DNA from: Gaiellaceae bacterium
GTDB taxonomy: Bacteria > Actinomycetota > Thermoleophilia > Gaiellales > Gaiellaceae
DNA: 64,000 nucleotides
Direction of reading: 5' to 3'
NCBI GenBank assembly: GCA_036501285.1
Contig: DASYAO010000147.1
Coordinates: 1,545-65,544 of the forward strand
The position numbers and the translations under genes were made by a program. Of this stretch, positions 8,015 through 42,600 are shown piece by piece (the first letter of the stretch is position 1; each line of letters begins with the position of its first letter). The notes under the pieces were generated by a model. That model ran no database searches. It was not told where the DNA came from and saw only the letters and a program-made list of their open reading frames with translations.

Positions 8015-9222
8015 ACGACGCCCTCGCGGGCGAGCTCGGCCGCGTCGAGGCCGAGCTCCGCGTAGACCTCGGCGTTGTGCTCTCCGAGCTTCGGGGCACG
8101 GAGCCGAATCGCGCCCGGCGTGCGCGACAGCCGGGGCACGACGTTCGTCAGCACCGTCCCGTCCTCCATCTGCACAACGCTCTCGCGTGCCCGGTAGTGC
8201 TCGTCTTCGAGGATGTCGACGATGTCGTAGACCGGGCCGACCGTGAGCCGGTGCTGCTCGGCGAGCTCCATCATCTCGTCGCGCGTGCGCGCGGCGAACT
8301 CCTCGGCGAGCGCCACGCCGAGCGCTGCGCGGTTCTCGTGACGCGCCGTCGCCGTCGCAAAGCGCTCGTCGTCGAGCAGGTCGAGCCGCCCGAGCGCCGT
8401 GAAGAAACGAAGAGCGGTCTCATCGGTCGCCGCCGAGACCGCAACCCAGTGACCGTCGGCCGTCTCGAAGACGCCGCGCACCGACGAGATGCCCGGCGAG
8501 TCGCCACGCGTGCGGCGCCGACCGTCGTGCGCATAGACGGTCGCATCGGCGCCCATGATCGAGAAGAGCGGCTCGAAGAGGGAGACGTCGACCACCTGAC
8601 CTTCGCCGCCGTTGACGCGAACCTCCCACAATGCCGCGAGCGCGGCCATCGCTGCGTAAGTGCCCGCGACGGTGTCGGCGAGCGAGAGCGGAGCCGGATG
8701 CGGCGGGCCGCCCTTCGGCCCGTTCAGGAACGTGAAGCCCGCGAACGCCTCGGCGAGCGTCCCGAAGCCGGGGTTCGTCGCGCGCGGCCCGGTCTGTCCC
8801 CAACCGGAGATGCGGACGACGACCAGTTTCGGGTTGCGCTCGAGGAGCGCCTCCGGTCCGCCGACGAGCCGCTCGAGCACGCGCGGCGCGAAGTTCTCGA
8901 CGAGCATGTCTGCGCCTTCGGCGAGCGAGAGCAGGATCTCGCGACCCCGCTCGTGCGCGAAGTCGAGCGTGATGCTGCGCTTGTTGCGCGCGTAGGTCCG
9001 CCAGTGCGCATCCGAGCCGCCGGAATGCCGGAACGGGTCGCCGGCACCCGGCCGCTCGACCTTGATCACATCGGCGCCGAGGTCGCCGAGTAGCACGCCG
9101 AGCTGTGCGCCCGAGACGAGCCGAGTCAGGTCGAGCACGCGAACGCCTGTGAGAGGACCTGCTTCGCCCTGCGCGTAGCGCTTCTGCGGCAGCGCCGCCG
9201 TCGGTGAGCTCGAGATCGTCAC
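8011..9222 (-). CDS. Family III (CaiB/BaiF) CoA-transferase
   Basis: Motif: GPLTGVRVLDLTRLVSGAQLGVLLGDLGADVIKVERPGAGDPFRH. The longest ORF starts at 9291. I prefer GTG 9222, which forms a GTGA overlap with the ABC ATPase stop (9219-9221) and gives about 403 aa, typical for the family. Confidence 0.75.
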   Translation of the reverse strand: MTISSSPTAALPQKRYAQGEAGPLTGVRVLDLTRLVSGAQLGVLLGDLGADVIKVERPGAGDPFRHSGGSDAHWRTYARNKRSITLDFAHERGREILLSLAEGADMLVENFAPRVLERLVGGPEALLERNPKLVVVRISGWGQTGPRATNPGFGTLAEAFAGFTFLNGPKGGPPHPAPLSLADTVAGTYAAMAALAALWEVRVNGGEGQVVDVSLFEPLFSIMGADATVYAHDGRRRTRGDSPGISSVRGVFETADGHWVAVSAATDETALRFFTALGRLDLLDDERFATATARHENRAALGVALAEEFAARTRDEMMELAEQHRLTVGPVYDIVDILEDEHYRARESVVQMEDGTVLTNVVPRLSRTPGAIRLRAPKLGEHNAEVYAELGLDAAELAREGVV

Positions 9223-10046
9223 GATCCCACAGGCACGACTGCCGGCGCCTGCTCGGCGGGTCTCGAGTGCGGCGCCGCGATCGGAATGCACATCGGAACG
9301 CCCGACGTCGGGTGCTCGAGGATGTGCGCGTCGATCCCGAAGACCTCGCGGATCAGGCTCGCACTCAGCACGTCCCTCGGGTCGCCCTGTGCGACCAGCT
9401 TGCCGTTCCGCAGCGCGAACAGCCGCTGCGAATACTCACATGCCATGTTGATGTCGTGCAGCACCATGACGATCGTCTTGCCTTCCGTCGCGTGCAGGTG
9501 TTTGAGCAGCTCGAGCACTTCGAGCTGATACGCGATGTCGAGGAACGTCGTCGGCTCGTCGAGCAGGATCAGGTCGGTTCCCTGCGCGAGCACGAGCGCG
9601 ATCCACACGCGTTGCCGCTGACCGCCGGAGAGGTGGTCGACCGGACGGTCGCGCAGATCTGACGTCGCCGTCACCTCGAGAGCCCAGTTGATCGCTTCGC
9701 GGTCCTCGGCGCGCATACCGCCGATCGACCGCCGCTGCGGGAAACGGCCGTAGGCGACGAGCTCCTCGACGGTGATCGACTCGGGAGAGATCAGCACCTG
9801 CGGCAGGATCGCGAGCCGTCGAGCGACCTCCTTCGTCGTGTACGAGCTGATCGCCTTGCCGTCGAGGACCACCTCACCGCCTTTCGGCCGCAGCAGCCGG
9901 GCGAGCGCGCGGAGGAGCGTCGACTTGCCGGAGCCGTTTGGGCCGATCAGGGCGCTGATCTGTCCGTCGGGCACGTCGATCGAGAGATCGGTGGCGACGA
10001 CGAGTTCGTCGTACTGGAGGGCGAGGTTGGAAGCGGAGAGGCGCAT
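9219..10046 (-). CDS. Iron-siderophore/cobalamin-type (FecE/FepC-like) ABC transporter ATP-binding protein
   Basis: 275 aa. Walker A GPNGSGKST, signature LSGGQRQR, Walker B LILLDEPT. SD AAGGAG is upstream of ATG 10046. Confidence 0.85.
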   Translation of the reverse strand: MRLSASNLALQYDELVVATDLSIDVPDGQISALIGPNGSGKSTLLRALARLLRPKGGEVVLDGKAISSYTTKEVARRLAILPQVLISPESITVEELVAYGRFPQRRSIGGMRAEDREAINWALEVTATSDLRDRPVDHLSGGQRQRVWIALVLAQGTDLILLDEPTTFLDIAYQLEVLELLKHLHATEGKTIVMVLHDINMACEYSQRLFALRNGKLVAQGDPRDVLSASLIREVFGIDAHILEHPTSGVPMCIPIAAPHSRPAEQAPAVVPVGS

Positions 10047-10060
10047 TCACTGCTCCTTCG

Positions 10061-11086
10061 CTAGAGCGACCGGGTGAGGAGGTAGACGAAGTATGGAGCG
10101 CCGATAACAGCGGTGACCATCCCGGCGGGAAGCTCGATCGGAGGATCCGCGCCACGTCCGATCGCGTCGGCGACGAGCAGCATCAGCGAGCCGAGGAGCG
10201 CGGCCGTCGGCAGCAGGACGGCGTGACGCGAGCCGACGAGCCGCCGCGCCATGTGAGGCGCGATCAGGCCGATGAAGAGCAGCGAGCCGGCGACGGCAAC
10301 GCAGGCGCTGGCGAGCAGGACGGCCAGAGCGAGGGCGATGCGGCGGGTGCGCTCGACCGAGAGCCCGAGGCCGCTCGCCATGTCGTCGCCGAGCCCGAGC
10401 ACGTCGAGCTTGTGGGCGTAGAAAACGAGCAGTGGCAGGATGACGGCGATCCAGGGCAGGATCTGGTAGACGGCGTTCATGTCGATCGCCGCGAGCGAGC
10501 CCGTCAACCAGACGAGCGCGTGCCCGATTCCATTCGCCTGGACGAGCAGCACGTAGCGGATGATCGACTCGCAGAGCGCGCTGACCGCGATTCCCACGAG
10601 CGCCAGGCGGACCGGCGTCGTGCCGCCGTTCTTGTAGGCAGCGAGGTAGACGATCACCATCGCGATGATGCCGCCCGCGAACGCGGCGACGGGAAGATAC
10701 GAGACCGCGGCGAGCGGATAAGCCCAGAGCAGAAAGACCGTGCCGAGGGCAGCGCCCTTGACGACGCCGATGATGTCGGGCGCCGCGAGTGGATTGCGCG
10801 TTACGCCCTGGATCACGCCGCCGGAGATCGCGAGCGCGCTGCCGACGAGGATCGCGATCAGCACGCGTGGCAGCTCGTAGGTGCGGATCGTCCGGATCTG
10901 GTCTGCTGTGCCGTGCCCGAAGAGCGCCTCGATCGCATGCGGCTCGAGCACACGGACCGCGCCGACGCCGAGCGTCAGGAACGCGGTGAGCAGGCAGAGC
11001 CCGGACAGCGTCACGATCACGACGGCGGGGCGCCGTGCGTGCACGCGGACGGCGACCCCGGGGGCGGCGACGGGAGTAGCCGTCAT
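10061..11086 (-). CDS. FecCD-family ABC permease (second of two)
   Basis: The real start is taken as ATG 11086 (MTATPVAAPG...), which forms an ATGA overlap with the upstream permease stop. The 133 Arg-rich codons upstream in the track ORF are read-through. Motifs: VTRNPLAAPDIIGV and GLIAPHMARRLVG. Confidence 0.8.
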   Translation of the reverse strand: MTATPVAAPGVAVRVHARRPAVVIVTLSGLCLLTAFLTLGVGAVRVLEPHAIEALFGHGTADQIRTIRTYELPRVLIAILVGSALAISGGVIQGVTRNPLAAPDIIGVVKGAALGTVFLLWAYPLAAVSYLPVAAFAGGIIAMVIVYLAAYKNGGTTPVRLALVGIAVSALCESIIRYVLLVQANGIGHALVWLTGSLAAIDMNAVYQILPWIAVILPLLVFYAHKLDVLGLGDDMASGLGLSVERTRRIALALAVLLASACVAVAGSLLFIGLIAPHMARRLVGSRHAVLLPTAALLGSLMLLVADAIGRGADPPIELPAGMVTAVIGAPYFVYLLTRSL

Positions 11087-12126
11087 CCGGCGATCTTCTC
11101 CCTTCGCGCCAGCAGGATGAAGAGCGTCGCGCCGATCGGCGCAACGACGACGCCGGCGGGGACCTCGGTATGCGAGGTGAGGTGCCGCGCGAGGATGTCG
11201 GCGTAGAGCAGCAGCGCAGCCCCGGCGACTGCGGATACCGGCAAAACGGCGAAATGGTTCTGGCCGACGATCCGGCGGACGATGTTCGGCACGATCAGCG
11301 CCAGGAACGCGACGGGGCCGGCGACTCCGACGGCTGCACCGGCGAGCAGCACGACACAGACGAGCGAGACGAAGCGGATGCGCCCGACGTTCTGACCGAG
11401 ACCCCGCGCGACGTCGTCTCCGAGCGCGAGGATGTTCAGCGGACGCGCAAGCAGCATCGCGAGCACGATCCCGGCGACCATCCACGGGTACGCCGTGTGG
11501 ATGTCGGCCCAGCGCGCGTACGTGACTCCGCCGACAAGCCAGAAGAAGAAGAGGTCGGCGTTCTGCGTGAACGCGATCAAGACGCCCTGCATCACCGCGT
11601 ACAACAAGAGCGAGATCGTCACTCCGGCGAGCGCGAGCCGCACCGGGGACAGGCCACCGCGTCCGTAGCGAGCGATCCCGAAGACCATCAGCGCCGCGAT
11701 GCCGCCACCGCCGAATGACAGGAACAGCTGGTTGATGCCCCCGAGGCTCGGCACGATCGTGGTGGCGAGCGCGACCGTGACGGCGGAGCCGCTCGTGACG
11801 CCGAGCACGTCGGGCGCGCCGAGCGGGTTCCGCGTCACCGACTGCATGATCGCGCCCGAGAGAGCGAGCGTCGCACCCGCGAGCACCGCGAGCAACGCCC
11901 GCGGCAAACGAATCAGGTGCACGATCAGCTGCTGCGTGTTGTGGCCCTGCGCGAAGGTGCCCCTCACGAGCGCTCCGAAGCCGATCTGCTCGGGCCCGAT
12001 CGAGACGCTCCAGATGAACCCGCCGATCGCGAGCGCGGTGAACACCACGAAGGCGATCGGGCCTCTGAGGCGCCGCGCGAGCGCGGCCGAAGCCGCGCCC
12101 GCGCCGGATGCCGGGACTGCCGTCAC
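11083..12126 (-). CDS. FecCD-family ABC permease (first of two)
   Basis: Motifs: SVTRNPLGAPDVLGV, LALIVPNIVRRIVG and EVPAGVVVAPIGATLFILL. The preferred start is GTG 12126 (VTAVPASGAG...), just after the SBP stop TAG at 12134. The track start 12213 lies inside the SBP gene. Confidence 0.75.
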   Translation of the reverse strand: MTAVPASGAGAASAALARRLRGPIAFVVFTALAIGGFIWSVSIGPEQIGFGALVRGTFAQGHNTQQLIVHLIRLPRALLAVLAGATLALSGAIMQSVTRNPLGAPDVLGVTSGSAVTVALATTIVPSLGGINQLFLSFGGGGIAALMVFGIARYGRGGLSPVRLALAGVTISLLLYAVMQGVLIAFTQNADLFFFWLVGGVTYARWADIHTAYPWMVAGIVLAMLLARPLNILALGDDVARGLGQNVGRIRFVSLVCVVLLAGAAVGVAGPVAFLALIVPNIVRRIVGQNHFAVLPVSAVAGAALLLYADILARHLTSHTEVPAGVVVAPIGATLFILLARREKIAG

Positions 12127-12133
12127 CTCACAC

Positions 12134-13165
12134 CTAGGTGCTGATGTTCGGCAACGCGATCGAGACGAACTTGTGGTAGAGCAGGTGGACGGCCTGCTGG
12201 CAGATGAGCTCACCCGCCTGGAGCCCGCGTGCCTTCGACCAGAGGTTGACGTTGACCGAATAGACCTGGTGGTTCTTCACAGCGTTCAGCGTCGGGAAGA
12301 GCTGGTCCTGCGCCCAGACGCTGTAGAGGGGCCCAGGCGGCGTGTCCGCGTGGAAGATGATGTCCGGGTTGTTGTTGAGGAGATCCTCCTCGGACATCAC
12401 GATGTACGGGTTGCCCAGGTTCGTCGAGTTCGTCGGCAGGATGTTCGCGTCCGGGATCCCGATTGCCTGAAGCAGGCTAGGCGTGTAGGCGAGGTTCGAG
12501 TGGACATTCCAGATCTTGTTCGTGTCGACCACGAACATCGCCTTGCGCGTCTCGCCTTTGCCGTTCGTCGCCTTCGTCACGGCGGCCTTCATCCGGGCGA
12601 TGATCATCTTGTCCTGCTCGACGCGGCGAACCATCGCGCCGCACTTGTTCACTGCCTGCCCGATGACGATTGCCGCGTGCAGGTTCGGCAGATACGCCTC
12701 CTTGAGGCTGTCGAGTGCGATCGTCGGCGCAATCTGCTGCAGCTGGTTGTAGATGTTCGCGTCGCGTGACGGATCGGCGATGATCAGGTCCGGGTGCAGC
12801 GATGCAATCGTTTCGAGGTTCGGTGCCGACCGAAGCCCGACCGACGTGTATTGGCCGAGCTTCGCCCGAACCGGGGCGATGATCTCGGATGAATTGTTGT
12901 CGTCGGCGACGCCGACAGGCTTGACGCCGACCTGAACAAGGTCGTCGACGAACGAGAACTCGAGCGCGACGACGCGCGTCGGCGTCCCGTGGAGCGTCAC
13001 AGACCCGAGCGTGCCGTTGACCGTGCGTGTGGCGGTGCGCGCAGCTCCACACGTCGGATCGAACTTCTTCGCCGCAGCCTGCGTGCTCGTTCCGCTTGTG
13101 GCACCCGCGGACGCGACTGCCGCGAGAGCGGCGAGCACGGCCGGGGCCACCAACCACTTCTTCAC
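12134..13165 (-). CDS. Peripla_BP_2 (FhuD/FepB-like) substrate-binding protein of the Fec-type importer
   Basis: GTG 13165 is preceded by AAGGAGGA 8 nt upstream. The signal peptide VKKWLVAPAVLAALAAVASAG has no lipobox Cys. The body contains TPTRVVALEFSFVDDLVQVGVKPVGVADD and HPDLIIAD. Confidence 0.8.
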   Translation of the reverse strand: MKKWLVAPAVLAALAAVASAGATSGTSTQAAAKKFDPTCGAARTATRTVNGTLGSVTLHGTPTRVVALEFSFVDDLVQVGVKPVGVADDNNSSEIIAPVRAKLGQYTSVGLRSAPNLETIASLHPDLIIADPSRDANIYNQLQQIAPTIALDSLKEAYLPNLHAAIVIGQAVNKCGAMVRRVEQDKMIIARMKAAVTKATNGKGETRKAMFVVDTNKIWNVHSNLAYTPSLLQAIGIPDANILPTNSTNLGNPYIVMSEEDLLNNNPDIIFHADTPPGPLYSVWAQDQLFPTLNAVKNHQVYSVNVNLWSKARGLQAGELICQQAVHLLYHKFVSIALPNIST

Positions 13166-13184
13166 GACACCATCCTCCTTGTTG

Positions 13185-13805
13185 TCATGCGGATTCCACC
13201 TCTGCCGGTCCGGTGCCAGGGAGCGCATGCAGCTGCGCTCCTTTCGCCGGCACCTCGGCATGCTCGTCGCCGCCGTGCAGCTCGAAGACCTTCGCCTCGA
13301 ACTCCTCGAGCAGCGTCTCGCAGCGCCGAAGCCAATCGCGGGCTTCCTGGGCGTTGGGGGCCCCGAACCAGTCCCGCTCCTGCGCCTGGTCGAACCAGGT
13401 GCAGATCTTTTCGAACTCCATCCGGATCTCTTCCGCCTCCTCGTAGCTGTAGTTGCGGCGGAAGTGCTCGAACTCGATTTCCTTCACGAAGTCGACCTCG
13501 CAGTTCTCGACGATCTCCGCGTAGTGCTTCGCGGTCTGGTCGACGAAGAGCTGGATCACCTTCTGCTCCTCCTCGGGCGTGAGCTCGCCGAGCGGAAGGA
13601 GGTGATACGTCCCGTTGCCCTCGTCGATGCGCGCGAGCACGCTGTCGAGCTCCGCGCGCAGCTCGTCGGTATCGGGCAGGACGCAGACGGAGTCCTGCAG
13701 GTAGACAGCGCCGGCCTTCTTCAGGCTGCGCCACACGGCGACGCGACCCGCAGTCGGTTTCGCAGGCATCCGGTAGACGAGCTGGAGGAAGCGCTGCGGT
13801 GCCAT
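13185..13805 (-). CDS. ChrB N-terminal-domain-like protein (chromate-resistance-regulator-like fold; function here unknown)
   Basis: 206 aa. FLQLVYRMPAKPTAGRVAVWRSLKKAGAVYLQDSVCVLPDT matches the ChrB_N signature as I remember it. No ChrA transporter gene is nearby. Confidence 0.55.
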   Translation of the reverse strand: MAPQRFLQLVYRMPAKPTAGRVAVWRSLKKAGAVYLQDSVCVLPDTDELRAELDSVLARIDEGNGTYHLLPLGELTPEEEQKVIQLFVDQTAKHYAEIVENCEVDFVKEIEFEHFRRNYSYEEAEEIRMEFEKICTWFDQAQERDWFGAPNAQEARDWLRRCETLLEEFEAKVFELHGGDEHAEVPAKGAQLHALPGTGPAEVESA

Positions 13806-13812
13806 CGCGTCG

Positions 13813-14037
13813 TTACCTGTGTCGCGCCGCTCCGACGGCGCCGCCGATGATGCTCATGGTGACGACGAGGAGAATCCCAAGGCCTGCGAGCAGCGAGATC
13901 GCCGTGTCGGAGAGCTTCGTCTCCGCGACGAGCACGGCGCCGGCCGCGAGTACAGCAGCGACGCCGGCCGCGATCTTCCAGTCCTCCCCGACGATGAAAT
14001 CCCACCAGAAGCGGCCGAAGCCGACGATGAATTTCAC
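13813..14037 (-). CDS. 74-aa two-helix membrane protein
   Basis: Hidden in the C-terminus of the spurious track ORF 13813..14586. GTG 14037 is preceded by GGAGGAGG 7 nt upstream and overlaps the upstream TAG by 1 nt. Hand translation: VKFIVGFGRFWWDFIVGEDWKIAAGVAAVLAAGAVLVAETKLSDTAISLLAGLGILLVVTMSIIGGAVGAARHR. Confidence 0.55.
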   Translation of the reverse strand: MKFIVGFGRFWWDFIVGEDWKIAAGVAAVLAAGAVLVAETKLSDTAISLLAGLGILLVVTMSIIGGAVGAARHR

Positions 14038-14837
14038 TACGCGACCTCCTCCGGGACGAGCGGCCGCGACACGACCTTCCCCTTGCCGTACGGGGTGAGG
14101 ATGCGGATCGCGAGCACCGAGAATGCGATCCACGCCGCGAGGACGGCGAGCAGCGTCACGTCGCCGCCGGGCCACTCGACGCTCGAGCTGCCGTGCTTGA
14201 AGACGCCGAGCCCTTCGATCGCCCAGAACGTGCCGAACGTCGAGAGCAGCAAGCCGACCGCGAACTTGATCGTGTTCTCGGGCACGCGGGAGAGCGGCTT
14301 GTGCAGCGCGAATCCGGCCACGAGCACGATCGCGCCGCCGGCCGATGCCCCCGCGATCGCGGTCGGCATCGAGTGCGCGTTGAGGCCGAAGGTGATCACG
14401 ATGAAGATCACCTCGAGCCCCTCGAGGAAGACGCCCTTGAAGCTGACGACGAAGCCGAACCAGTCGAGCCCCGCCTTCGTCTCGGCGCCGGCGCGGCGCG
14501 CGGCCTCGGTCTCCTCGCGGAACGTCTCCTCCTCGTCGTGCAGCGACTTGAGCCCGGAGGAGCGGAGGATCGCCTTGCGCAGCCACTGGAGGCCGAAGAC
14601 GAGGAGCAAGCTGCCGACGACGAACTGGAGCGCGCTCTTCGGGAACCAGTTGATCAGAGCGTAGCCGGAGAAGGCGGCGACGCCCGCCAGCAGCACGAGC
14701 GCGCTCACGGTGCCGGCGATGGTCGAGCGCCAGCCGCGGGTCAGGCCCATGGCGAGCACGATCGTGAATGCCTCGACGAACTCCACTGCCGAGGCCAGAA
14801 GGGTCGATGCGGCAAGTCCGGTAGTGCCCCAGGTCAA
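14037..14837 (-). CDS. Polytopic membrane protein with internal two-fold repeat (COG4280-like)
   Basis: TTG 14837 is preceded by GAGGGGGAA 6 nt upstream. No other in-frame ATG, GTG or TTG lies between it and the amidohydrolase stop. Repeat motifs are AVEFVEAFTIVLAMGLTRGWRS and VFLEGLEVIFIVITFG. The track ORF (to 15440) is Arg-rich read-through. Confidence 0.65.
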   Translation of the reverse strand: MTWGTTGLAASTLLASAVEFVEAFTIVLAMGLTRGWRSTIAGTVSALVLLAGVAAFSGYALINWFPKSALQFVVGSLLLVFGLQWLRKAILRSSGLKSLHDEEETFREETEAARRAGAETKAGLDWFGFVVSFKGVFLEGLEVIFIVITFGLNAHSMPTAIAGASAGGAIVLVAGFALHKPLSRVPENTIKFAVGLLLSTFGTFWAIEGLGVFKHGSSSVEWPGGDVTLLAVLAAWIAFSVLAIRILTPYGKGKVVSRPLVPEEVA

Positions 14838-14852: not shown

Positions 14853-14912
14853 GATGAAACGGTGGTTACTTGTGGCGAAGGTTATAAACGAACCTTCGCC
14901 ACATGTCCAGCG
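14853..14912 (-). promoter_or_regulatory. Copy A of a conserved 60-bp promoter/leader element: -35 TGGACA (14904-14909), 17-nt spacer, -10 TATAAC (14881-14886), then conserved leader ACAAGTAACCnnCGTTTCATC
   Basis: Ungapped hand alignment with 29305..29364 gives 48/60 identical positions. Both copies end 14-15 nt before the start codon of a minus-strand gene. Copy A also carries a perfect 13-bp inverted repeat, TGTGGCGAAGGTT-N7-AACCTTCGCCACA (14871-14903), across the -10 box. Confidence 0.6.
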
Positions 14913-27083: not shown

Positions 27084-28217
27084 GTGAAGATCGTCGTCGT
27101 CGGGGCGGGCTTTGCCGGCCTCGCGGCCGCGCACGTGCTGACCGACCGCGGCGCTGAGGTCGTCGTCTTCGAGGCGCGCGATCGCGTCGGCGGACGGGTC
27201 CGCTCGCATACGCTCGCGAACGGCTGCGTCGTCGAGCTCGGCGGCGAGTTCATCCTTCCGGGGCACGACACGGTGCGCCGCCTTGCGAACGAGCTCGGCC
27301 TCCGCCTCTACGAGAAGGGCACCGCGTACGGGAACCGCGAGCCGCGCGGTGGCCTGCCGGTCACCCGCGAAGAGGTGACCGCCGCGATTGCAAGCGTCGC
27401 GGCGCACGCGAGCTCCCAGCCGCTTCCGGTCGCGCTCGGGCGGGCCGGCGTTCCCGAGGCTGCGCGCGAGGCGATCCTCGCGCGGATCGAGGTGACGACG
27501 GCGTATCCGGCCGACGACCAGCCGAGCTCCGTGCTCGCCGAAAGCGGTACTGCGTTCGGGGATTTCGTAACGCACGGCATCGAGGGCGGCAACGAGCGCC
27601 TCGCGGCCGAGCTCGCGCGAACGCTCGACGTGCGGCTTGGCCGGCGCATCGAACATGTGCGCCACTCCGAGCGCGGTGTCGAGGTTGCCGATACGCAGGC
27701 CGACGCGTGCGTGCTCGCAATTCCTGTAGACGGGTTGCCGGAGTTCGATCCGCCGCTGCCCGGGTGGAAGCAGCGCGCGCAAGCCGCCGTGCGCTACGGC
27801 AGCACCGGCAAGCTCTTTCTGCCGCTCGCGCAGGCGGCACCGCCGAGCGCGACCCTTTCCGTGCCGGGGCGCTTCTGGACGTACACCCAGCTCGCGCCGA
27901 GTGGCGACCCGCTGCCGGTCGCGTGCTCGTTCGGCAGGCCCGGCGAGGATTGGCCGGCCGAGGTGCGCGCGCTCCGTCCCGACCTCGCATACGACGACGG
28001 CGCCATACCGGTGCAGTCGCATTGGCCTGCCGCGTACTCGGCGCGGTCCCTCGGGTCACGCCTCGACGACGACGCGCTCGCGCTTCCCGTCGGCCGGCTC
28101 GCCTTCGCGGGCGAGCACACCGCGGGCAACTGGAACGCGCTGATGGAAGGCGCGCTTCGGAGCGGTGAGCGCGCCGCCGCGGACGTCTACGCAGCGGCGT
28201 CGCGGATCGCCAGGTAG
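27084..28217 (+). CDS. FAD-dependent amine oxidase (monoamine/polyamine oxidase-like)
   Basis: GTG 27084 gives MKIVVVGAGFAGLAAAHVLTDRGAEVVVFEARDRVGGR, a dinucleotide-binding fold plus the amine-oxidase motif. The C-terminal region contains LAFAGEHT. Confidence 0.8.
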   Translation: MKIVVVGAGFAGLAAAHVLTDRGAEVVVFEARDRVGGRVRSHTLANGCVVELGGEFILPGHDTVRRLANELGLRLYEKGTAYGNREPRGGLPVTREEVTAAIASVAAHASSQPLPVALGRAGVPEAAREAILARIEVTTAYPADDQPSSVLAESGTAFGDFVTHGIEGGNERLAAELARTLDVRLGRRIEHVRHSERGVEVADTQADACVLAIPVDGLPEFDPPLPGWKQRAQAAVRYGSTGKLFLPLAQAAPPSATLSVPGRFWTYTQLAPSGDPLPVACSFGRPGEDWPAEVRALRPDLAYDDGAIPVQSHWPAAYSARSLGSRLDDDALALPVGRLAFAGEHTAGNWNALMEGALRSGERAAADVYAAASRIAR

Positions 28218-29290
28218 CGCTGGTTGAAGACGTAGGGCTGCGTGTCCTTCTTCGCGTAGACGCCGTGCGTGAACGCGCGTGAACGGACACCCTTCTGCAC
28301 GCGTTCGCAGACGACGAAATCCTGCTCGTTGACGAGCTCGTTGAAGTCGACGATCTCCGACATGTCGAAGTCCGGAGCGTCGAGCACCTCGGGCCGGAAG
28401 AGATACTCGGTGACGACGGTCGTCTGCTCGGGCCCACGCGGGTGCAGACACGTCGCCACAACGCTCGTCGGGCTGATGTCGAGGAACATGTTCGGGAAGA
28501 CGGCGATCGAATAGATCGAGGTCGCCTCGTGGGGCTCGAAGCCGGGCATCACGGGGAGCGCGGATGTGCCCGAATGCGTGAAGCTCGTGCCGTTGTCGGC
28601 GATCACGACGCCGCCGTCGTCGCGCCCGTCCTCGAGTACGTCGCCACGCTTGTACGCCGGGACGATCGCGACGAGCTCGGGGTGCACCGTCGGGCAGTGG
28701 AGGCACTCGTTGTAGTTCTCGACGTTGATCTTCCAGTTTGCCCAGACGTCGACGAGGGTGCGATGGCCGACGCGTAACTCGCCGAGCGGGCCGAAGCGCT
28801 CGAGCGGCAGCGGTTCTTCAGGCTCGGCCGCGAGCGTGTCGAGCAGCGGCTCGGGATGCTCGGAGAGGTTTGCGAAGAGGAAACCAGCCCAGACGTCGAC
28901 CGTCACCGGCCAGAGACCGAGTGAGGCGCGGTCGACCTCGTCTTCCGCGACCATCGGCGTCCCGATCAGGCTGCCCTCGAGCGAGTAGGTCCAGGCGTGG
29001 TACGGGCACTTGATCGCGCCGCGCGCGTGCCCGGCGCCGAGCTCGCAGAGCCGCGAGCCGCGGTGGCGGCAGACGTTGTAGAAGCCGCGCAGGCCGCCCT
29101 CCTTGCCGCGAACGACGACGATGCTCTCGCCCGCGATGTCGTAGGCGACGTAGTCACCGGGCTCGGCGAGCTCGTCGGCGCGGCCCAGGTAGTACCAGCG
29201 GCGGAAGAAGATCCGCTCGCGTTCGAGCGCGAAGACCTCGGGACGGTGGTAGTCGCCGCCGGGCAGCGTGGCGCGGAGTTCGGTTGGCAT
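28187..29290 (-). CDS. Rieske [2Fe-2S] non-haem-iron oxygenase alpha subunit (GbcA/CntA/choline-monooxygenase-like)
   Basis: 367 aa. The Rieske motif is CRHRGSRL...CPYHAW. The mononuclear-iron region is NWKINVENYNECLHCPTVHPEL. The 3' end overlaps the convergent amine oxidase gene by 31 nt. Confidence 0.8.
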   Translation of the reverse strand: MPTELRATLPGGDYHRPEVFALERERIFFRRWYYLGRADELAEPGDYVAYDIAGESIVVVRGKEGGLRGFYNVCRHRGSRLCELGAGHARGAIKCPYHAWTYSLEGSLIGTPMVAEDEVDRASLGLWPVTVDVWAGFLFANLSEHPEPLLDTLAAEPEEPLPLERFGPLGELRVGHRTLVDVWANWKINVENYNECLHCPTVHPELVAIVPAYKRGDVLEDGRDDGGVVIADNGTSFTHSGTSALPVMPGFEPHEATSIYSIAVFPNMFLDISPTSVVATCLHPRGPEQTTVVTEYLFRPEVLDAPDFDMSEIVDFNELVNEQDFVVCERVQKGVRSRAFTHGVYAKKDTQPYVFNQRYLAIRDAAA

Positions 29291-29304: not shown

Positions 29305-29364
29305 GATGAAACGACGGTTACTTGTAGCACCGGTTATAAAGGAACGCACGCCGCCTGTCCAGCG
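29305..29364 (-). promoter_or_regulatory. Copy B of the conserved 60-bp promoter/leader element: -35 TGGACA (29356-29361), 17-nt spacer, -10 TATAAC (29333-29338), conserved leader
   Basis: 48/60 identity with 14853..14912 by hand alignment. It ends 14 nt upstream of the Rieske ATG at 29290. Confidence 0.6.
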
Positions 29365-29441
29365 CCAAGCCCTCTTACCCGGCGGCCTTGATCGCCGCGA
29401 CGACCGCGCTCGGGTTCGCCAGGTTCACCGTCGTGCCGACT

Positions 29442-29474
29442 GAGCTGCGCGTGGCGCGAGGCCGCGCGCAGCTC
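29442..29474 (-). terminator. GC-rich hairpin downstream of the glycan operon
   Basis: GAGCTGCGCG ... CGCGCAGCTC forms a perfect 10-bp stem, extendable to 13 bp with one G-U pair. It starts 23 nt after the stop at 29497. There is no clear U-tract. Confidence 0.55.
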
Positions 29475-29496
29475 AGCTTCGTCACTCGTGAGTTCG

Positions 29497-39649: not shown

Positions 39650-42600
39650 CTAGATCGAGACGGTGACGCTCTTCGACTGGTTGCTCGTGAGGCCGAGCAG
39701 CGGCTCGGTCTGCGCCGCCGTGAGCGCGTGCTTGCCCGACGTGAGCGTCGTCACCGTCTCCGTCCAGGCCCCACCGACGCAACCCACGGCGCTGCCCACA
39801 GTCGCGGCGCCCTGGTACAGCTGCACCTTGTCACCGGCCGCGCAGGTTCCGTTCAACGTGACCTTCCCGCCGCTCGGCGTTCCGGCGACGATCGTCGGCG
39901 CACCCGGCACCGCGACGCCGTTGACGGTGATGCTCGAGCTCGCGACGCTGACGAGCGTCGAGACCGGGTCGACCTCGGTCGCGTAGAAGACGTGCGTCCC
40001 TGACGAGAGGTTGACCGCAAACGACCAGGTGCCGCTGGCGAGCGTGATCTTGACCTTGCCGATCAGCGAGCCGTCCTCGTAGATGGAAACGGTGTCTCCG
40101 ACGGTGCCCGTGCCGTTAAGGGTGAATGACAGCGGCGTGTTCGCGGGCGCTGTGACGGTCGGCTGAGGCGTCGGCTTGAAGACGTTGACGACGAAGCTCC
40201 TCGAGGGCCTGCTCGCAATGCCGGTGATGCGATCGGTGTCGACGGCGGTCAGCGTGTGCGCGCCGAGCCCGTTCAGCGTCACCTGCAGCGTCCAGTTGCC
40301 GAGGGCGCTCACGATCGCCGTTCCGATCTTCGTCGCGCCGTCGTAGACGGTGATGACCTCGCCGGCCGTGCCGGTCCCCGTCAGCGTCGTCATCGACAGG
40401 GTGTTGACGGGCCCGTTGATCGTCGGCGCCGGCGGCGGGGTCGGCTGGACGTAGAAGGGCGTCATCACGAAGAACTCGTCGCGATCGCCACCCGGCCCGA
40501 AGTCCGGGTCGAGATCGAGGCTGTACGACGCGATCCACGGGCTCGGCGAGACGAGACCCTGCGCCGAGCCGAAGACCGAGAACTGCCGCGCCCACTGGGT
40601 CATCAGCTGCGCGACGAGATCGCCCTCGTGCTCGACGTTGCCGATTCCGTGGATGAGCTGGCCGCCGGCAAGGAGGCACTTGTTGTCGTTGCCGGGGCCG
40701 TCGCAGCTGACCAGGTTGTCGCCGGTGCCGACGGTGACCGTGTCGTCGCCGCTCTGGGCGAAGACGACGTTGCTGCCGTTGCCGGCCGTGATCGTGTCGT
40801 TGCCGCCGGAGATGTCGGTGTTGTGCTGATTGTCGAGCGCGCCGGGCAGGTCGCCCCACCAGCCGCGGTCGTCGACGTCGTGCGGATGCGAGGCCATGTC
40901 GACGACGGCGTTGAGGATGTCGTCGGCATCGGGCTTCGCGTGGGCCCACGGCGGCGTCGGCGGACCGTTCGGAGGCAGCACCTCGTTGGTCGCGACGTCC
41001 GCGAGGTTGTCGCCCCAGACGAGGTTGTTCCCGTCGCCGAGCGTGATCGTGTCGCTACCGAGCGTGACGTTGTCGCCGGGCGCATGGTCGGGTCCGAACG
41101 GCGGGCCGAACGGCGGACCAAAGGCAGGCCAGAGCCAATTGCCGGACCCAGGCGGGCCGCAGCAGGGCCACGGCCACGGACCGGGCCACGGGCCATGCGG
41201 CCCGCACGGGCAGAGCCACGGCCCCGGCCAGACGAGCGGTGCGGGGCTGCCGTCCGGGTTCTGGAACAGCGGCTTGCCGCCGAGCGAGATCGTGACCGAC
41301 GGCGTCTCGACGAGGTAGTCGTCGCCGACGACCAGGTTGTTGCCGCTCGCAGTGTGGCGGAAGAAGTAGGAAATCGTGTCGTCGCCGACGTTCAGATTGT
41401 CGACGTGGTACGTGAGCTCGGTCGCCGGCTTGCCGTTCTTCTGCACGACCGTCGAGATCTGGTCGAGCAGATGGTGCTGGTCGGTCACGAGCTCGCGTCC
41501 GACGAGCAGCAGACCGTCACTGGCGGTGTCGAGCGCGTCGACGATCGCGTCGGACTCGTCGGCGAGCCCGACGTTCGTGAGGATGTTCGGCGCCAGGATG
41601 CTCAGGTCGTCGCCGACGATCGTATTGGACCCGTCTCCGAATGAGATCGAGTCGTCCCCGATGTTGAGGGTCGCATCGACGACCGTGTTCGTCAGGGGCG
41701 GCGCCGGCGTGCCGTCGGTGGCGACCTCGGCCACTTCGATACCGGCAGTGAGCACTGCGAATTCCGCCGTCGCCGTCAGCAGCGTCGCCGCCATCTGCAG
41801 CCCGGTGAGAACGGTCGCGGGGTTCGTCAGGTCGACCGTCTGCGAGAACTCGGTCAGATCGTCGCCGACGATCAGGTTCGTCCCGTTGCCGGCGGCGATC
41901 GTGTCGTTGCCGTCGAGCTGGCCGAGATGGTTCGCGATGTCGGGGACGAAGCTCGCGACCGGCGCCCACTGCGTGCCGCCGGCGCCCGGGATGTAGTTGG
42001 CGGACGGCAGCCCGGCCTCGTCACCTGTCAGCTGCGGGAGGATCGCGTTGAAGGCGTCGACGTCGTCATTCGGCACGACGGACGTCCACGGGAACACGAC
42101 ATTCCCGCTCAGGCCGTCGGCGGCGCCGAACGGACCGCCCGGGCTCTGCAGGAGCAGGCCGTTGGCGACGTTCGGTGCGTTGCCGTCGGAGGTGTCGATC
42201 GTCGCGTTGTCGCCGACGACGGTGTTGTTGCCGTCGCCGACCGTGAGGACATCGTCGCCGGTGCCACCGGACAGGAAGCTGTTGCCGCTGCCGTCGACGA
42301 GGAGGTCGTTGCCGCCCTCACCGAAGAGTTGGTCGTTGCCCTCGCCGCCGTAGAGCTGGTCGTTCCCGTCGGCAGCGAGCTGGATGGTGAGCAGATCGAG
42401 GTTCCACGAGCCGTCGGGGTTGAGGACCGGCATGCCGTTCGCGTACTGGACGGCGAGGAGGAGCAGGCTGGCAGCATCGAGCTGCTGCTCGAGCGCGACG
42501 GTCGGAATCGGATTCGTCCAGCTCGGCGGCGGGCCGGTGAAGGTCAGCGGGATCGTCGCGGTGACCGTGCCGACTTCGAGCAGCTGGATGTTGTTCTGCG

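What the first reader, a model, noticed from the sequence alone, without database searches (positions are those of the whole stretch)
14853..14912. A 60-bp promoter-plus-leader element present twice (14853-14912 and 29305-29364) in front of unrelated genes
Ungapped hand alignment of the two minus-strand elements gives 48/60 identities. In sense orientation the shared sequence is CGCTGGACA-nnn-GGCG-nnn-GTTC-n-TTTATAACC-nnn-GC-n-ACAAGTAACC-nn-CGTTTCATC.

Both copies contain TGGACA, a 17-nt spacer and TATAAC, which is a good sigma-70-type promoter and rare in DNA this GC-rich. A conserved 21-nt block follows and would form the 5' end of the mRNA. The elements end 15 and 14 nt before their start codons.
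- Copy A precedes TTG 14837 (COG4280-like membrane protein operon).
- Copy B precedes ATG 29290 (Rieske oxygenase).

Conservation extends into the spacer and the transcribed leader, beyond what a promoter alone needs. That suggests a shared regulator binding site or RNA element, or a recently duplicated regulatory cassette.

Copy A additionally has a perfect 13-bp inverted repeat (14871-14903) across the -10 box. Copy B lacks it, so the two promoters may be differentially repressed.
Basis: seen in the sequence. Interest (0 to 1): 0.6.

Follow-up and report, generated by a model that had tools for sequence, protein, structure and literature searches.

The report
Duplicated promoter-operator module, ChrB_N-linked
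A 60-bp promoter plus repressor-binding site that normally sits in front of a metal-uptake operon has been copied in front of an unrelated oxygenase gene, probably placing both under a poorly known ChrB-like regulator encoded in that operon.

Summary
The two minus-strand 60-mers (14853-14912 and 29305-29364) share 48/60 bases. Their flanks are at random level (25-32%). The next-best 60-mer in the 2.3-Mb MAG matches 34/60.

Copy A is the ancestral promoter region of an operon encoding an OFeT/GDT1-like permease, a small membrane protein, a ChrB_N protein and a Fec-type ABC importer. The same layout recurs before orthologous operons in related Thermoleophilia/Gaiellales-like genomes and soil metagenomes: -35, 17 bp, TATAAC, 11-12 nt, then GTAAC-N4-GTTTC.

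The conserved "leader" block is an imperfect palindrome. WAAC-N4-GTTW boxes occur in 12 of 15 gene-A loci with a neighbouring ChrB_N gene and in 0 of 95 without one. They also lie before ChrB_N genes that have no gene A nearby.

No Rfam family matches and no stable or conserved RNA fold appears. I read the block as a DNA operator, most likely for the operon's own ChrB_N protein; that binding is inferred, not shown.

Copy B is an old recruitment, not a recent one. It is as far from copy A as orthologous elements of other species are. Its functional parts are conserved before a 93%-identical Rieske gene in a soil metagenome contig. More distant Rieske orthologues lack it.

The parts
14853..14912 (-). 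Copy A: the 60-bp promoter-operator module in front of the gene-A operon
   Evidence: Orthologous elements lie before gene-A orthologues in G114, G067, G012, G005, G101, G119, L099, L317 and the metagenome loci L192-L264.
14904..14909 (-). Copy A putative -35 hexamer, TGGACA
   Evidence: Sequence. A -35-like hexamer (TGGACA, TCGACA, TTGACA, TTGCAT or TTGCGT) sits 17 bp before the -10 in every orthologous element.
14881..14886 (-). Copy A putative -10 hexamer, TATAAC; its AAC is also the right half of the conserved GTT-N7-AAC symmetry
   Evidence: The hexamer fails the strict scan because position 6 is C.
14868..14906 (.). Long inverted repeat across the -10 of copy A (16-nt arms, 7-nt gap)
   Evidence: It is partly conserved in type-I relatives: 78% of cells are paired, with no significant covariation. 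It is decayed in copy B and in the sister lineage L317 (7/16 by my hand count on the sequence).
14853..14873 (-). Copy A conserved 21-nt block, ACAAGTAACCACCGTTTCATC. Its core is the imperfect palindrome GTAAC-N4-GTTTC (14856-14869). This is the putative operator, at about +1 to +21.
29305..29364 (-). Copy B: the same module in front of the Rieske oxygenase gene
   Evidence: It is conserved before a 93%-identical Rieske gene in metagenome contig L313.
29356..29361 (-). Copy B putative -35 hexamer, TGGACA
   Evidence: Identical in L313.
29333..29338 (-). Copy B putative -10 hexamer, TATAAC
   Evidence: Identical in L313.
29305..29325 (-). Copy B 21-nt block, ACAAGTAACCGTCGTTTCATC (core GTAAC-N4-GTTTC at 29308-29321)
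   Evidence: A 28-nt run, GCTACAAGTAACCGTCGTTTCATCCC plus flanking bases, is identical in L313, while the rest of the intergenic region does not align.
14037..14837 (-). Gene A: 266-aa membrane protein with weak OFeT_1 and GDT1 hits (COG4280-like); first gene behind copy A
13813..14040 (-). Small 75-aa membrane protein; no family hit
   Evidence: The same small gene follows gene A in relatives.
13185..13805 (-). ChrB_N-only protein (206 aa): candidate repressor acting on both copies, and the only ChrB_N gene in the MAG
   Evidence: PF20229 at E = 3.5e-30. Single copy, and no ChrB_C found.
9219..13261 (-). Fec-type ABC importer: a Peripla_BP_2 binding protein, two putative FecCD-type permeases and an ATPase. 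It continues the copy-A operon.
   Evidence: The binding protein was scanned. The permeases and ATPase were read from translations only. The same gene order in relatives carries FecCD and ABC_tran annotations.
28187..29290 (-). Rieske/Ring_hydroxyl_A oxygenase alpha subunit. It is GbcA-like but scores below that model's cut-off. It is monocistronic and convergent with an amine oxidase gene.

Best explanation
Each copy is a compact promoter-operator module.

A sigma-70-type promoter (TGGACA, 17 bp, TATAAC) would start transcription about 6-8 nt after TATAAC. The conserved block ACAAGTAACC-NN-CGTTTCATC would then cover roughly +1 to +21.

The core of that block, GTAAC-N4-GTTTC, is an imperfect palindrome. 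I read it as the DNA operator of a dimeric repressor. A second symmetric element, GTT-N7-AAC, straddles the -10. In copy A it is extended to 16-nt arms.

Occupancy of these sites would block RNA polymerase binding or promoter escape.

The most likely repressor is the ChrB_N-only protein encoded as the third gene of the copy-A operon. It would autoregulate its own operon (permease, Fec-type importer and downstream enzymes).

Copy B is an old, selectively maintained duplicate of the module. It recruits a GbcA-like Rieske oxygenase into this small regulon.

Shown: the sequence features, their conservation, and their co-occurrence with ChrB_N genes.

Inferred: the transcription start, the binding itself, the identity of the binder, repression as the mode of action, and the signal. 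The signal may be a metal or metal chelate, judging from the operon content and the invariant Cys and Glu residues.
For: 1. The pair is far beyond chance: 48/60 identity with random flanks, and the next-best match in the genome is 34/60.

2. Copy A is orthologously conserved. The same order of -35, 17 bp, TATAAC, 11-12 nt and GTAAC-N4-GTTTC lies before gene-A orthologues in seven or more related genomes and eight high-GC metagenome contigs.

3. The exact box GTAAC-N4-GTT[TA]C occurs in 8 of 8 fetched loci where ChrB_N shares the operon with gene A. It occurs in none of about 95 gene-A loci without ChrB_N. The relaxed box WAAC-N4-GTTW gives 12/15 against 0/95.

4. The box follows ChrB_N rather than gene A.
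- In L102, ChrB_N is the first gene and the perfect palindrome GTAACAGTCGTTAC lies directly before it.
- G012 and L246 have an extra tandem pair of boxes. In G012 it lies directly before ChrB_N; for L246 that position is inferred.
- Short ChrB_N genes have G[AC]AACC-NN-GGTT[GT]C boxes 60-110 nt upstream, with no gene A in the fetched 3.2-kb loci. In G014 the short gene lies divergent from a ChrB_C-like gene.

5. Distant taxa with a ChrB_N gene next to gene A carry related boxes upstream of gene A. These include Pseudonocardiaceae, Arthrobacter and Ktedonobacteria.

6. There is an experimental precedent. Full-length ChrB of Ochrobactrum tritici binds its own promoter in vitro and represses it. 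[quoted passage not shown] R18A and R23A mutants are constitutive (PMC3817168). The ChrB_N proteins here have invariant R21 and R26 with the same 5-residue spacing.

7. Copy B is under purifying selection. Against L313, the -35, the -10 and 28 nt around the box are identical, while the rest of the intergenic region does not align and the upstream neighbour differs.

8. No RNA explanation emerged: no Rfam family and leader fold z-scores near 0 with no common structure.
Against:
- The -10 hexamer lacks T at position 6 and fails the strict scan.
- The ChrB_N model has no helix-turn-helix. It is a Cas2-like beta-alpha-beta-beta-alpha-beta domain followed by three long helices. Its best PDB fold hit is PaaX at E = 2e-3 and TM-score 0.44. 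From my own memory, unchecked, PaaX binds DNA through an N-terminal winged helix. The model shows no such domain, so sequence-specific binding by this protein is not obvious from the fold.
- Co-occurrence could instead mean that ChrB_N is a co-regulated partner of an unlinked regulator.
- Related genomes are not independent, so the Fisher p-value overstates the case.
- Two ChrB_N loci (G066, G073) show differently arranged GTAAC repeats.
- Only two sites exist in this MAG, so no wider regulon supports the motif.
Confidence: 0.6

Rival explanations
1. The block is an operator, but for an unlinked regulator (for example a TetR, GntR or metal-sensing repressor encoded elsewhere). ChrB_N would then be a co-regulated accessory protein, such as a sensor or partner, and not the DNA binder.
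For: The ChrB_N model lacks any helix-turn-helix and resembles the non-HTH part of PaaX and Cas2. AAC-N4-GTT cores are used by several repressor families (my own knowledge, for example Gram-positive LexA and PsrA-type TetR sites). The MAG is only 79% complete, so a regulator gene could be missing.
Against: No transcription-factor gene is consistently linked to the boxes across loci, whereas ChrB_N is. The box variant changes with the ChrB_N subfamily: GTAAC...GTTTC for the long type and GAAACC..GGTTGC for the short type. Boxes sit before ChrB_N genes even where gene A is absent. ChrB itself binds DNA in vitro in O. tritici (PMC3817168).
Confidence: 0.25
2. The conserved block acts at the RNA level as a 5'-leader element, for example a riboswitch-like structure, a translational operator or an sRNA target shared by both mRNAs.
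For: If the predicted promoter is right, the block would be transcribed at the 5' end of both mRNAs. Conservation runs to within 14-15 nt of the start codons. GTTTC can pair with bases next to the Shine-Dalgarno region in copy A (by eye).
Against: No Rfam hit reaches the gathering score. With permissive thresholds there is only a spurious miRNA-hairpin match on the copy-A palindrome. Minimum-free-energy folds of 14 leaders have z-scores between -1.1 and +1.1 and share no structure. The box is a DNA palindrome. In other taxa it lies in the promoter spacer or abuts the -10 (L137, L102), in divergent intergenic regions, or in tandem pairs.
Confidence: 0.1
3. Copy B is a neutral leftover of a local duplication or gene conversion and has no regulatory role. 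Only copy A is functional.
For: Only two copies exist. Copy B has lost the long palindrome. More distant Rieske orthologues use other upstream regions. In relatives the two loci lie only 6 kb apart, which would favour ectopic exchange.
Against: In L313 the -35, the -10 and the box are kept intact, while the spacer and the rest of the intergenic region have diverged and the upstream neighbour differs. Copy B retains all positions that are invariant among the type-I elements.
Confidence: 0.04

Closest known systems
ChrB repressor and chr operator of Ochrobactrum tritici TnOtChr (also Cupriavidus chrB)
   Same: A ChrB_N-domain protein is encoded next to the regulated promoter. [quoted passage not shown] The system is negatively autoregulated. 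A conserved Arg pair lies 5 residues apart near the N-terminus (R18/R23 there, R21/R26 here).
   Different: The protein here has no ChrB_C (rhodanese-like, chromate-sensing) domain, and none was found in the MAG. None of the scanned operon genes is a ChrA chromate exporter; instead the operon encodes a permease and a Fec-type importer. The recurring site is a short GTAAC-N4-GTTTC box just downstream of the -10, not 12-bp arms with a 9-bp linker. In O. tritici the N-terminal half alone was not functional.
PaaX (phenylacetate catabolon repressor; PDB 8a39) and Rv0674 (3kfw)
   Same: These are the best structural matches to the ChrB_N model over about 180 columns, covering a Cas2-like domain plus a helical domain.
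   Different: The match is weak: E = 2e-3 and TM-score 0.44, with no sequence similarity. From my own knowledge, PaaX binds DNA with an N-terminal winged helix that ChrB_N lacks. The PaaX box as I recall it is not present in either copy.
Regulon growth by duplication of a promoter-operator cassette
   Same: A module bounded by the -35 and the operator is copied in front of an unrelated gene, with no coding sequence carried along.
   Different: Here the donor promoter, the recipient gene and the time window of the event can all be traced. The module is absent before 81%- and 59-65%-identical Rieske orthologues and present before a 93%-identical one.
Gram-positive LexA (Cheo) boxes and other AAC-N4-GTT operators
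   Same: They share the core symmetry AAC-N4-GTT.
   Different: The flanks differ: GTAAC/GTTTC here against CGAAC/GTTCG, with 3-4 mismatches, which is no better than shuffled sequence (consensus recalled from memory). The downstream genes are not SOS genes. The sites track ChrB_N.

Membership tests
Sigma-70-type (housekeeping) promoter | -35 hexamer with at least 4/6 matches to TTGACA | tested here: met
   TGGACA (5/6) in both copies. Orthologues have TTGACA, TCGACA, TTGCAT or TTGCGT at the same place.
Sigma-70-type (housekeeping) promoter | Spacer of 16-18 bp | tested here: met
   17 bp in both copies and in the orthologues.
Sigma-70-type (housekeeping) promoter | -10 hexamer with A at position 2 and T at position 6 | tested here: not met
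   TATAAC has C at position 6, so the strict scan reports 0 promoters at both copies. The AAC is conserved as part of the GTT-N7-AAC symmetry.
Sigma-70-type (housekeeping) promoter | Mapped transcription start 5-9 nt downstream of the -10 | not testable with these tools
ChrB-type regulator/operator system | ChrB_N domain protein encoded at the regulated locus | tested here: met
   PF20229 at E = 3.5e-30, 105.5 bits against a cut-off of 23. It is the single copy in the MAG.
ChrB-type regulator/operator system | ChrB_C (effector-sensing) domain in the same protein | tested here: not met
   The 206-aa protein has only ChrB_N. PF09828 was not found in the MAG, although the control genomes also gave no hit.
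ChrB-type regulator/operator system | Imperfect inverted repeat overlapping the -10 of the regulated promoter | tested here: met
   Copy A has 16-nt arms across the -10. Every element has GTT-N7-AAC across the -10. In copy B the outer arms have decayed.
ChrB-type regulator/operator system | N-terminal Arg pair needed for repression (R18/R23 in O. tritici) | tested here: inconclusive
   R21 and R26 are invariant in 24 homologues and have the same spacing. I did not align them directly to the O. tritici sequence.
ChrB-type regulator/operator system | [quoted passage not shown] | not testable with these tools
   Only genomic co-occurrence is available.
ChrB-type regulator/operator system | Control of a chrA chromate-efflux gene | tested here: not met
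   The scanned operon genes are an OFeT/GDT1-like permease, a small membrane protein, ChrB_N and a Peripla_BP_2 binding protein. The remaining genes look like FecCD permeases and an ABC ATPase by translation and by annotation in relatives. The whole MAG was not searched for chrA.
Known cis-regulatory RNA (Rfam family or riboswitch) | Match to a covariance model at the gathering score | tested here: not met
   There were 0 hits in the window. With permissive thresholds there was only a sub-threshold miRNA-hairpin artefact.
Known cis-regulatory RNA (Rfam family or riboswitch) | Stable, conserved secondary structure of the leader | tested here: not met
   z-scores range from -1.1 to +1.1 and the 14 leaders share no common fold.
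Interspersed repeat or mobile element (REP/MITE-like) | Many dispersed copies with terminal repeats | tested here: not met
   There are only two copies in the MAG. Copy A sits at an orthologous position across species.
IdeR/DtxR, Fur, Zur or PaaX boxes | Match to the family consensus better than shuffled sequence gives | tested here: not met
   The best matches have 6-11 mismatches, equal to the shuffles.

The most novel reading that the evidence does not exclude
ChrB_N-only proteins of about 200 aa form an unrecognised family of sequence-specific, autoregulating repressors in Actinomycetota and Chloroflexota. They have a Cas2-like domain plus a helical bundle (a PaaX-like core) and no helix-turn-helix. 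They would recognise AAC-N4-GTT palindromes and control a permease plus Fec-type metal-uptake operon. In this lineage the regulon grew when the whole 60-bp promoter-operator module was copied in front of a Rieske oxygenase gene.
Probability: 0.4. Interest if true: 0.65.

Novelty: new variant of a known kind. Interest (0 to 1): 0.45.

Why it matters
The finding gives a concrete, testable operator (GTAAC-N4-GTTTC) and a candidate cognate protein for a large family annotated as "hypothetical". More than 1,400 homologues scored E <= 1e-5. No paper on this family turned up in the held library.

If ChrB_N binds the box, it would be a DNA-binding regulator built on a Cas2-like/PaaX-core fold without a helix-turn-helix. 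It would control a widespread soil-actinobacterial metal-uptake operon.

The copy-B event is also a clean natural example of regulon growth by duplication of a promoter-operator cassette. The donor, the recipient and the approximate timing are all visible.

As a promoter and operator pair it is otherwise ordinary biology.

Tried and rejected
- **Long degenerate pattern in 60 relatives.** No match with up to 3 mismatches. The element is too diverged for that approach, so I switched to orthologue upstream regions.
- **16-nt box with 1 mismatch in 100 genomes of the genus.** By my rough count of the table, hits are about as frequent as the reversed-pattern control. Only the 0-mismatch hits and hits with matching context were used.
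- **Rfam.** Nothing at gathering or permissive thresholds.
- **Leader RNA folds.** No signal.
- **Covariation in the long palindrome.** Not above shuffles. It is also not kept in the sister lineage L317. I therefore do not treat it as a conserved hairpin or an essential site.
- **Strict promoter scan.** No call, because of the C at position 6 of the -10.
- **IdeR, Fur, Zur, LexA and PaaX consensus boxes (from memory).** No better than shuffled sequence. A KstR-like match in copy B only (TATAACCGGTGCTA, 2 mismatches) is judged to be chance.
- **Sequence search of PDB with the ChrB_N profile.** Nothing.
- **Literature.** Nothing relevant for COG4280, PF20229 or ChrB-like. The PaaX structure paper is not in the library.
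- **The P0125 contig** could not be read because the file was too large.

Full report
**Observation**

Reading both regions on the minus strand confirms the two 60-mers:
- A (14912 to 14853): CGCTGGACATGTGGCGAAGGTTCGTTTATAACCTTCGCCACAAGTAACCACCGTTTCATC
- B (29364 to 29305): CGCTGGACAGGCGGCGTGCGTTCCTTTATAACCGGTGCTACAAGTAACCGTCGTTTCATC

They share 48/60 bases. The 60 nt on either side match at only 16/60 and 19/60.

In the whole MAG (2.31 Mb, 203 contigs, 68% GC, 79% complete), the best other ungapped 60-mer match to copy A is 34/60. The degenerate 36-nt core has 2 matches against 0.00 expected. Only these two sites in the genome carry GTAAC-N4-GTTTC.

The palindrome across the -10 of copy A is real, with 16-nt arms at 94% complementarity. 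Copy B lacks it.

**Genes**

Copy A precedes these genes:
- a 266-aa membrane protein with weak OFeT_1 and GDT1 hits ("gene A")
- a 75-aa membrane protein
- a 206-aa ChrB_N-only protein
- a Fec-type binding protein, two apparent FecCD permeases and an ATPase (the permeases and ATPase were not scanned here, but relatives carry those annotations)

Copy B precedes a single Rieske/Ring_hydroxyl_A oxygenase gene. Its best NCBIfam hit is GbcA, far below the cut-off. The gene converges on an amine oxidase gene.

Contig names of the nearest relatives place the organism among Thermoleophilia/Gaiellales-like Actinomycetota.

**Copy A is an ancestral, conserved promoter region**

Upstream regions of gene-A orthologues carry the same architecture in the same order. 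The orthologues come from the genus (G114, G067, G012, G005, G101, G119), a Gaiellaceae MAG (L099), a sister-lineage contig (L317) and eight high-GC metagenome contigs.

The order is a -35-like hexamer, 17 bp, TATAAC (TAAACT in G067), 11-12 nt, then GTAAC-N4-GTTTCA, followed by the ribosome-binding site and start codon.

Two sequence types exist:
- Type I: TGGACAtgtggcg ... ACAAGTAACC
- Type II: TTGCAT ... TTCGnTGTAAC

Both copies in this genome are type I.

Invariant positions among the type-I elements are the -35 core, GTT-N7-(T)A.AAC across the -10, and GTAACC..CGTTTCA.

The strict sigma-70 scan calls no promoter, because TATAAC ends in C. The promoter assignment therefore rests on conservation and geometry. 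It does not rest on a full consensus match or on a mapped start.

**The "leader" block is a palindromic box that tracks ChrB_N genes**

The exact box occurs in all 8 fetched loci where a ChrB_N gene lies in the gene-A operon. It occurs in none of about 95 gene-A loci without ChrB_N.

With the relaxed form WAAC-N4-GTTW within 200 nt upstream of gene A or ChrB_N, the count is 12/15 against 0/95. The Fisher p-value is about 1e-13 but is overstated, because kin are not independent. Several separate lineages are nevertheless involved.

The box follows ChrB_N rather than gene A:
- In the Gaiellales MAG L102, ChrB_N is the first gene. The perfect palindrome GTAACAGTCGTTAC lies directly in front of it, abutting a TACAAT -10.
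- G012 and L246 have an additional tandem pair of boxes. In G012 it sits immediately before ChrB_N; for L246 I infer the same position.
- A second, short ChrB_N subfamily is present in G014, G011, G023 and G105. G014, G011 and G105 carry G[AC]AACC-NN-GGTT[GT]C boxes (tandem in G014 and G105) 60-110 nt upstream and nowhere else in the 3.2-kb loci. G023 has only the variant GAAACCACGGTCTC. No gene A lies in the fetched loci. In G014 the short gene is divergent from a gene that reads as ChrB_C-like.

Distant taxa with a ChrB_N gene next to gene A carry related boxes upstream of gene A:
- Pseudonocardiaceae: TGTAACAGCTGTTAGG
- Arthrobacter: ATAACAGCCGTTAC
- two Actinomycetota MAGs
- Ktedonobacteria: multiple TGTTACA repeats

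Only 13 of 101 genomes of the genus have any ChrB_N gene. The genomes that carry the element are among them.

**DNA operator or RNA element**

- No Rfam family matches.
- MFE folds of 14 leaders have z-scores near 0 and share no structure.
- The position of the box relative to the -10 varies among taxa: it overlaps the spacer in Arthrobacter, abuts the -10 in L102, and lies 11-12 nt downstream here.
- The box also occurs in tandem and in divergent intergenic regions.

These features fit a protein-binding DNA site better than an RNA element.

**Who binds**

The only published precedent found is full-length ChrB of Ochrobactrum tritici. It binds its own promoter in vitro and represses it. [quoted passage not shown] R18A and R23A mutants are constitutive (PMC3817168).

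An alignment of 24 ChrB_N-only proteins shows these invariant residues: Y11, P14, R21, W25, R26, C102, C162 and several Glu. The R21/R26 spacing equals that of R18/R23.

The AlphaFold model has mean pLDDT 86.6. It shows a beta-alpha-beta-beta-alpha-beta domain followed by three long helices, and no helix-turn-helix. The best PDB fold hits are PaaX (8a39; E = 2e-3, TM-score 0.44 over 184 columns), many Cas2 proteins and Rv0674.

ChrB_N is therefore the best candidate on genomic grounds, with experimental precedent in a relative. The fold itself does not demonstrate DNA binding. I put direct binding by ChrB_N at roughly 50%.

Consensus boxes for IdeR, Fur, Zur, LexA and PaaX, recalled from memory, do not fit.

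**Copy B: an old, maintained recruitment**

Copy B is 44-48/60 identical to every type-I element. Copy A is 47-51/60 identical to the orthologous elements of other species. The duplication is therefore about as old as these species splits, and is not recent.

Rieske orthologues at 59-65% identity in the genus use a different conserved upstream region (tcgcacaatgcaaac...). In G101 the orthologue follows a C45 gene directly. The 81%-identical orthologue in a Gaiellaceae relative also lacks the element and is flanked by a TrwC-type mobile element.

A forest-soil contig (L313) with a 93%-identical Rieske protein does carry copy B. CTGGACA, TATAAC and 28 nt around the box are identical. The promoter spacer has diverged, the rest of the intergenic region does not align, and the upstream neighbour is a different, divergent gene. 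This is a phylogenetic footprint showing that copy B is functional.

In relatives, the Rieske/amine-oxidase/C45 island and the gene-A operon are close neighbours: about 6 kb apart in G101 and in L314. Here they are 14.4 kb apart. A local ectopic copy of the module is therefore plausible.

**The long palindrome of copy A**

It is partly present in several type-I elements (78% of cells paired) but shows no covariation above shuffles. It is lost in copy B and in the sister lineage L317 (7/16 by my hand count on the sequence). I treat it as a lineage-variable extension of the -10-straddling symmetry. It may give copy A tighter repression, but it is not a core feature.

**Verdict**

The finding is real. 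It is a promoter-operator module duplicated within a small regulon. The operator belongs to an uncharacterised ChrB_N-linked system found across Actinomycetota and Chloroflexota.

The mechanism, repression and autoregulation by the operon's ChrB_N protein, is inferred. The signal is unknown. A metal or metal chelate is a guess based on the operon content and the invariant Cys and Glu residues.

Earlier first-reader notes on this window describe the copy-A operon chain and the amine-catabolic island under copy B (e1-3979345, e1-3979347). They agree with what I found.

Noticed in passing
window 40680-47200 (also about 58000-59600): There is a very large repeat-rich coding region. It has 27-nt periodic units nested in 390-426-nt higher-order repeats (7 copies at 61-86% identity to the reference copy), typical of a giant beta-helix or RTX-like surface protein.
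   Followed up: no
L097 (G067:C22:11338-11353): In relative G067, a box AGTAACGTTAGTTTCATC lies 7 nt before the start of an etfB-like gene (product starts MKIAVCIKHVPGG). A TATAACAGATGTTCG sequence lies further upstream. This may be a different extra regulon member in that species.
   Followed up: partly
L187 (G014:C339), L188, L189, L190: Short ChrB_N genes carry GAAACC-NN-GGTTGC-type boxes upstream (tandem in G014 and G105; G023/L189 has only a variant). In G014 the short gene is divergent from a gene that reads as ChrB_C-only, giving a 'split ChrB' arrangement. This is a second ChrB_N subfamily with its own box variant.
   Followed up: partly
window 29333-29346 (copy B only): TATAACCGGTGCTA resembles the KstR-type TnnAACnnGTTnnA palindrome (2 mismatches to the consensus I recall). 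Copy A lacks it. It is probably chance.
   Followed up: partly
window 29439-29477 (minus strand): A 13-bp GC-rich hairpin (GCTGAGCTGCGCG ... CGCGCAGCTCAGT) without a T-run lies 20 nt after the stop of the upstream glycoamylase-like gene. It is a likely I-shaped terminator that insulates copy B from read-through.
   Followed up: no
L314/L315 (Ga0070740_10001570 and related contigs): In a Gaiellaceae relative, the Rieske/amine-oxidase/C45 x2/RpiR island is directly followed by an ABC ATPase and UPF0014 permease pair (FetAB-like) and then the gene-A operon. A TrwC relaxase/helicase mobile element abuts the Rieske gene. G000 has about 9 kb of other genes (GntR-TldD-PmbA, an aconitase paralogue, an amidohydrolase) at the corresponding place.
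   Followed up: partly
G000:C119:5648-5663 (L076) and G105:C58 (L069): A conserved GGCGGCAGCCGC-TGTAAC-N4-GTTCCA-CAGC sequence is shared by two genomes. It has an AAC-N4-GTT core in a different context and its meaning is unknown.
   Followed up: no
G000:C24 about 12457 and C11 about 182: Palindromes of the form TGCAAAAC-N4-GTTTTGCA lie in low-GC intergenic stretches. The C11 site sits beside DnaA-box-like TGTGGAAAA repeats and may be the origin region.
   Followed up: no
window 13188-13805 (ChrB_N protein): Across 24 homologues from two phyla, Cys102, Cys162 and a cluster of Glu residues (E97, E113, E123, E125, E126) in the helical part are invariant. This may be a metal- or redox-sensing site.
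   Followed up: no
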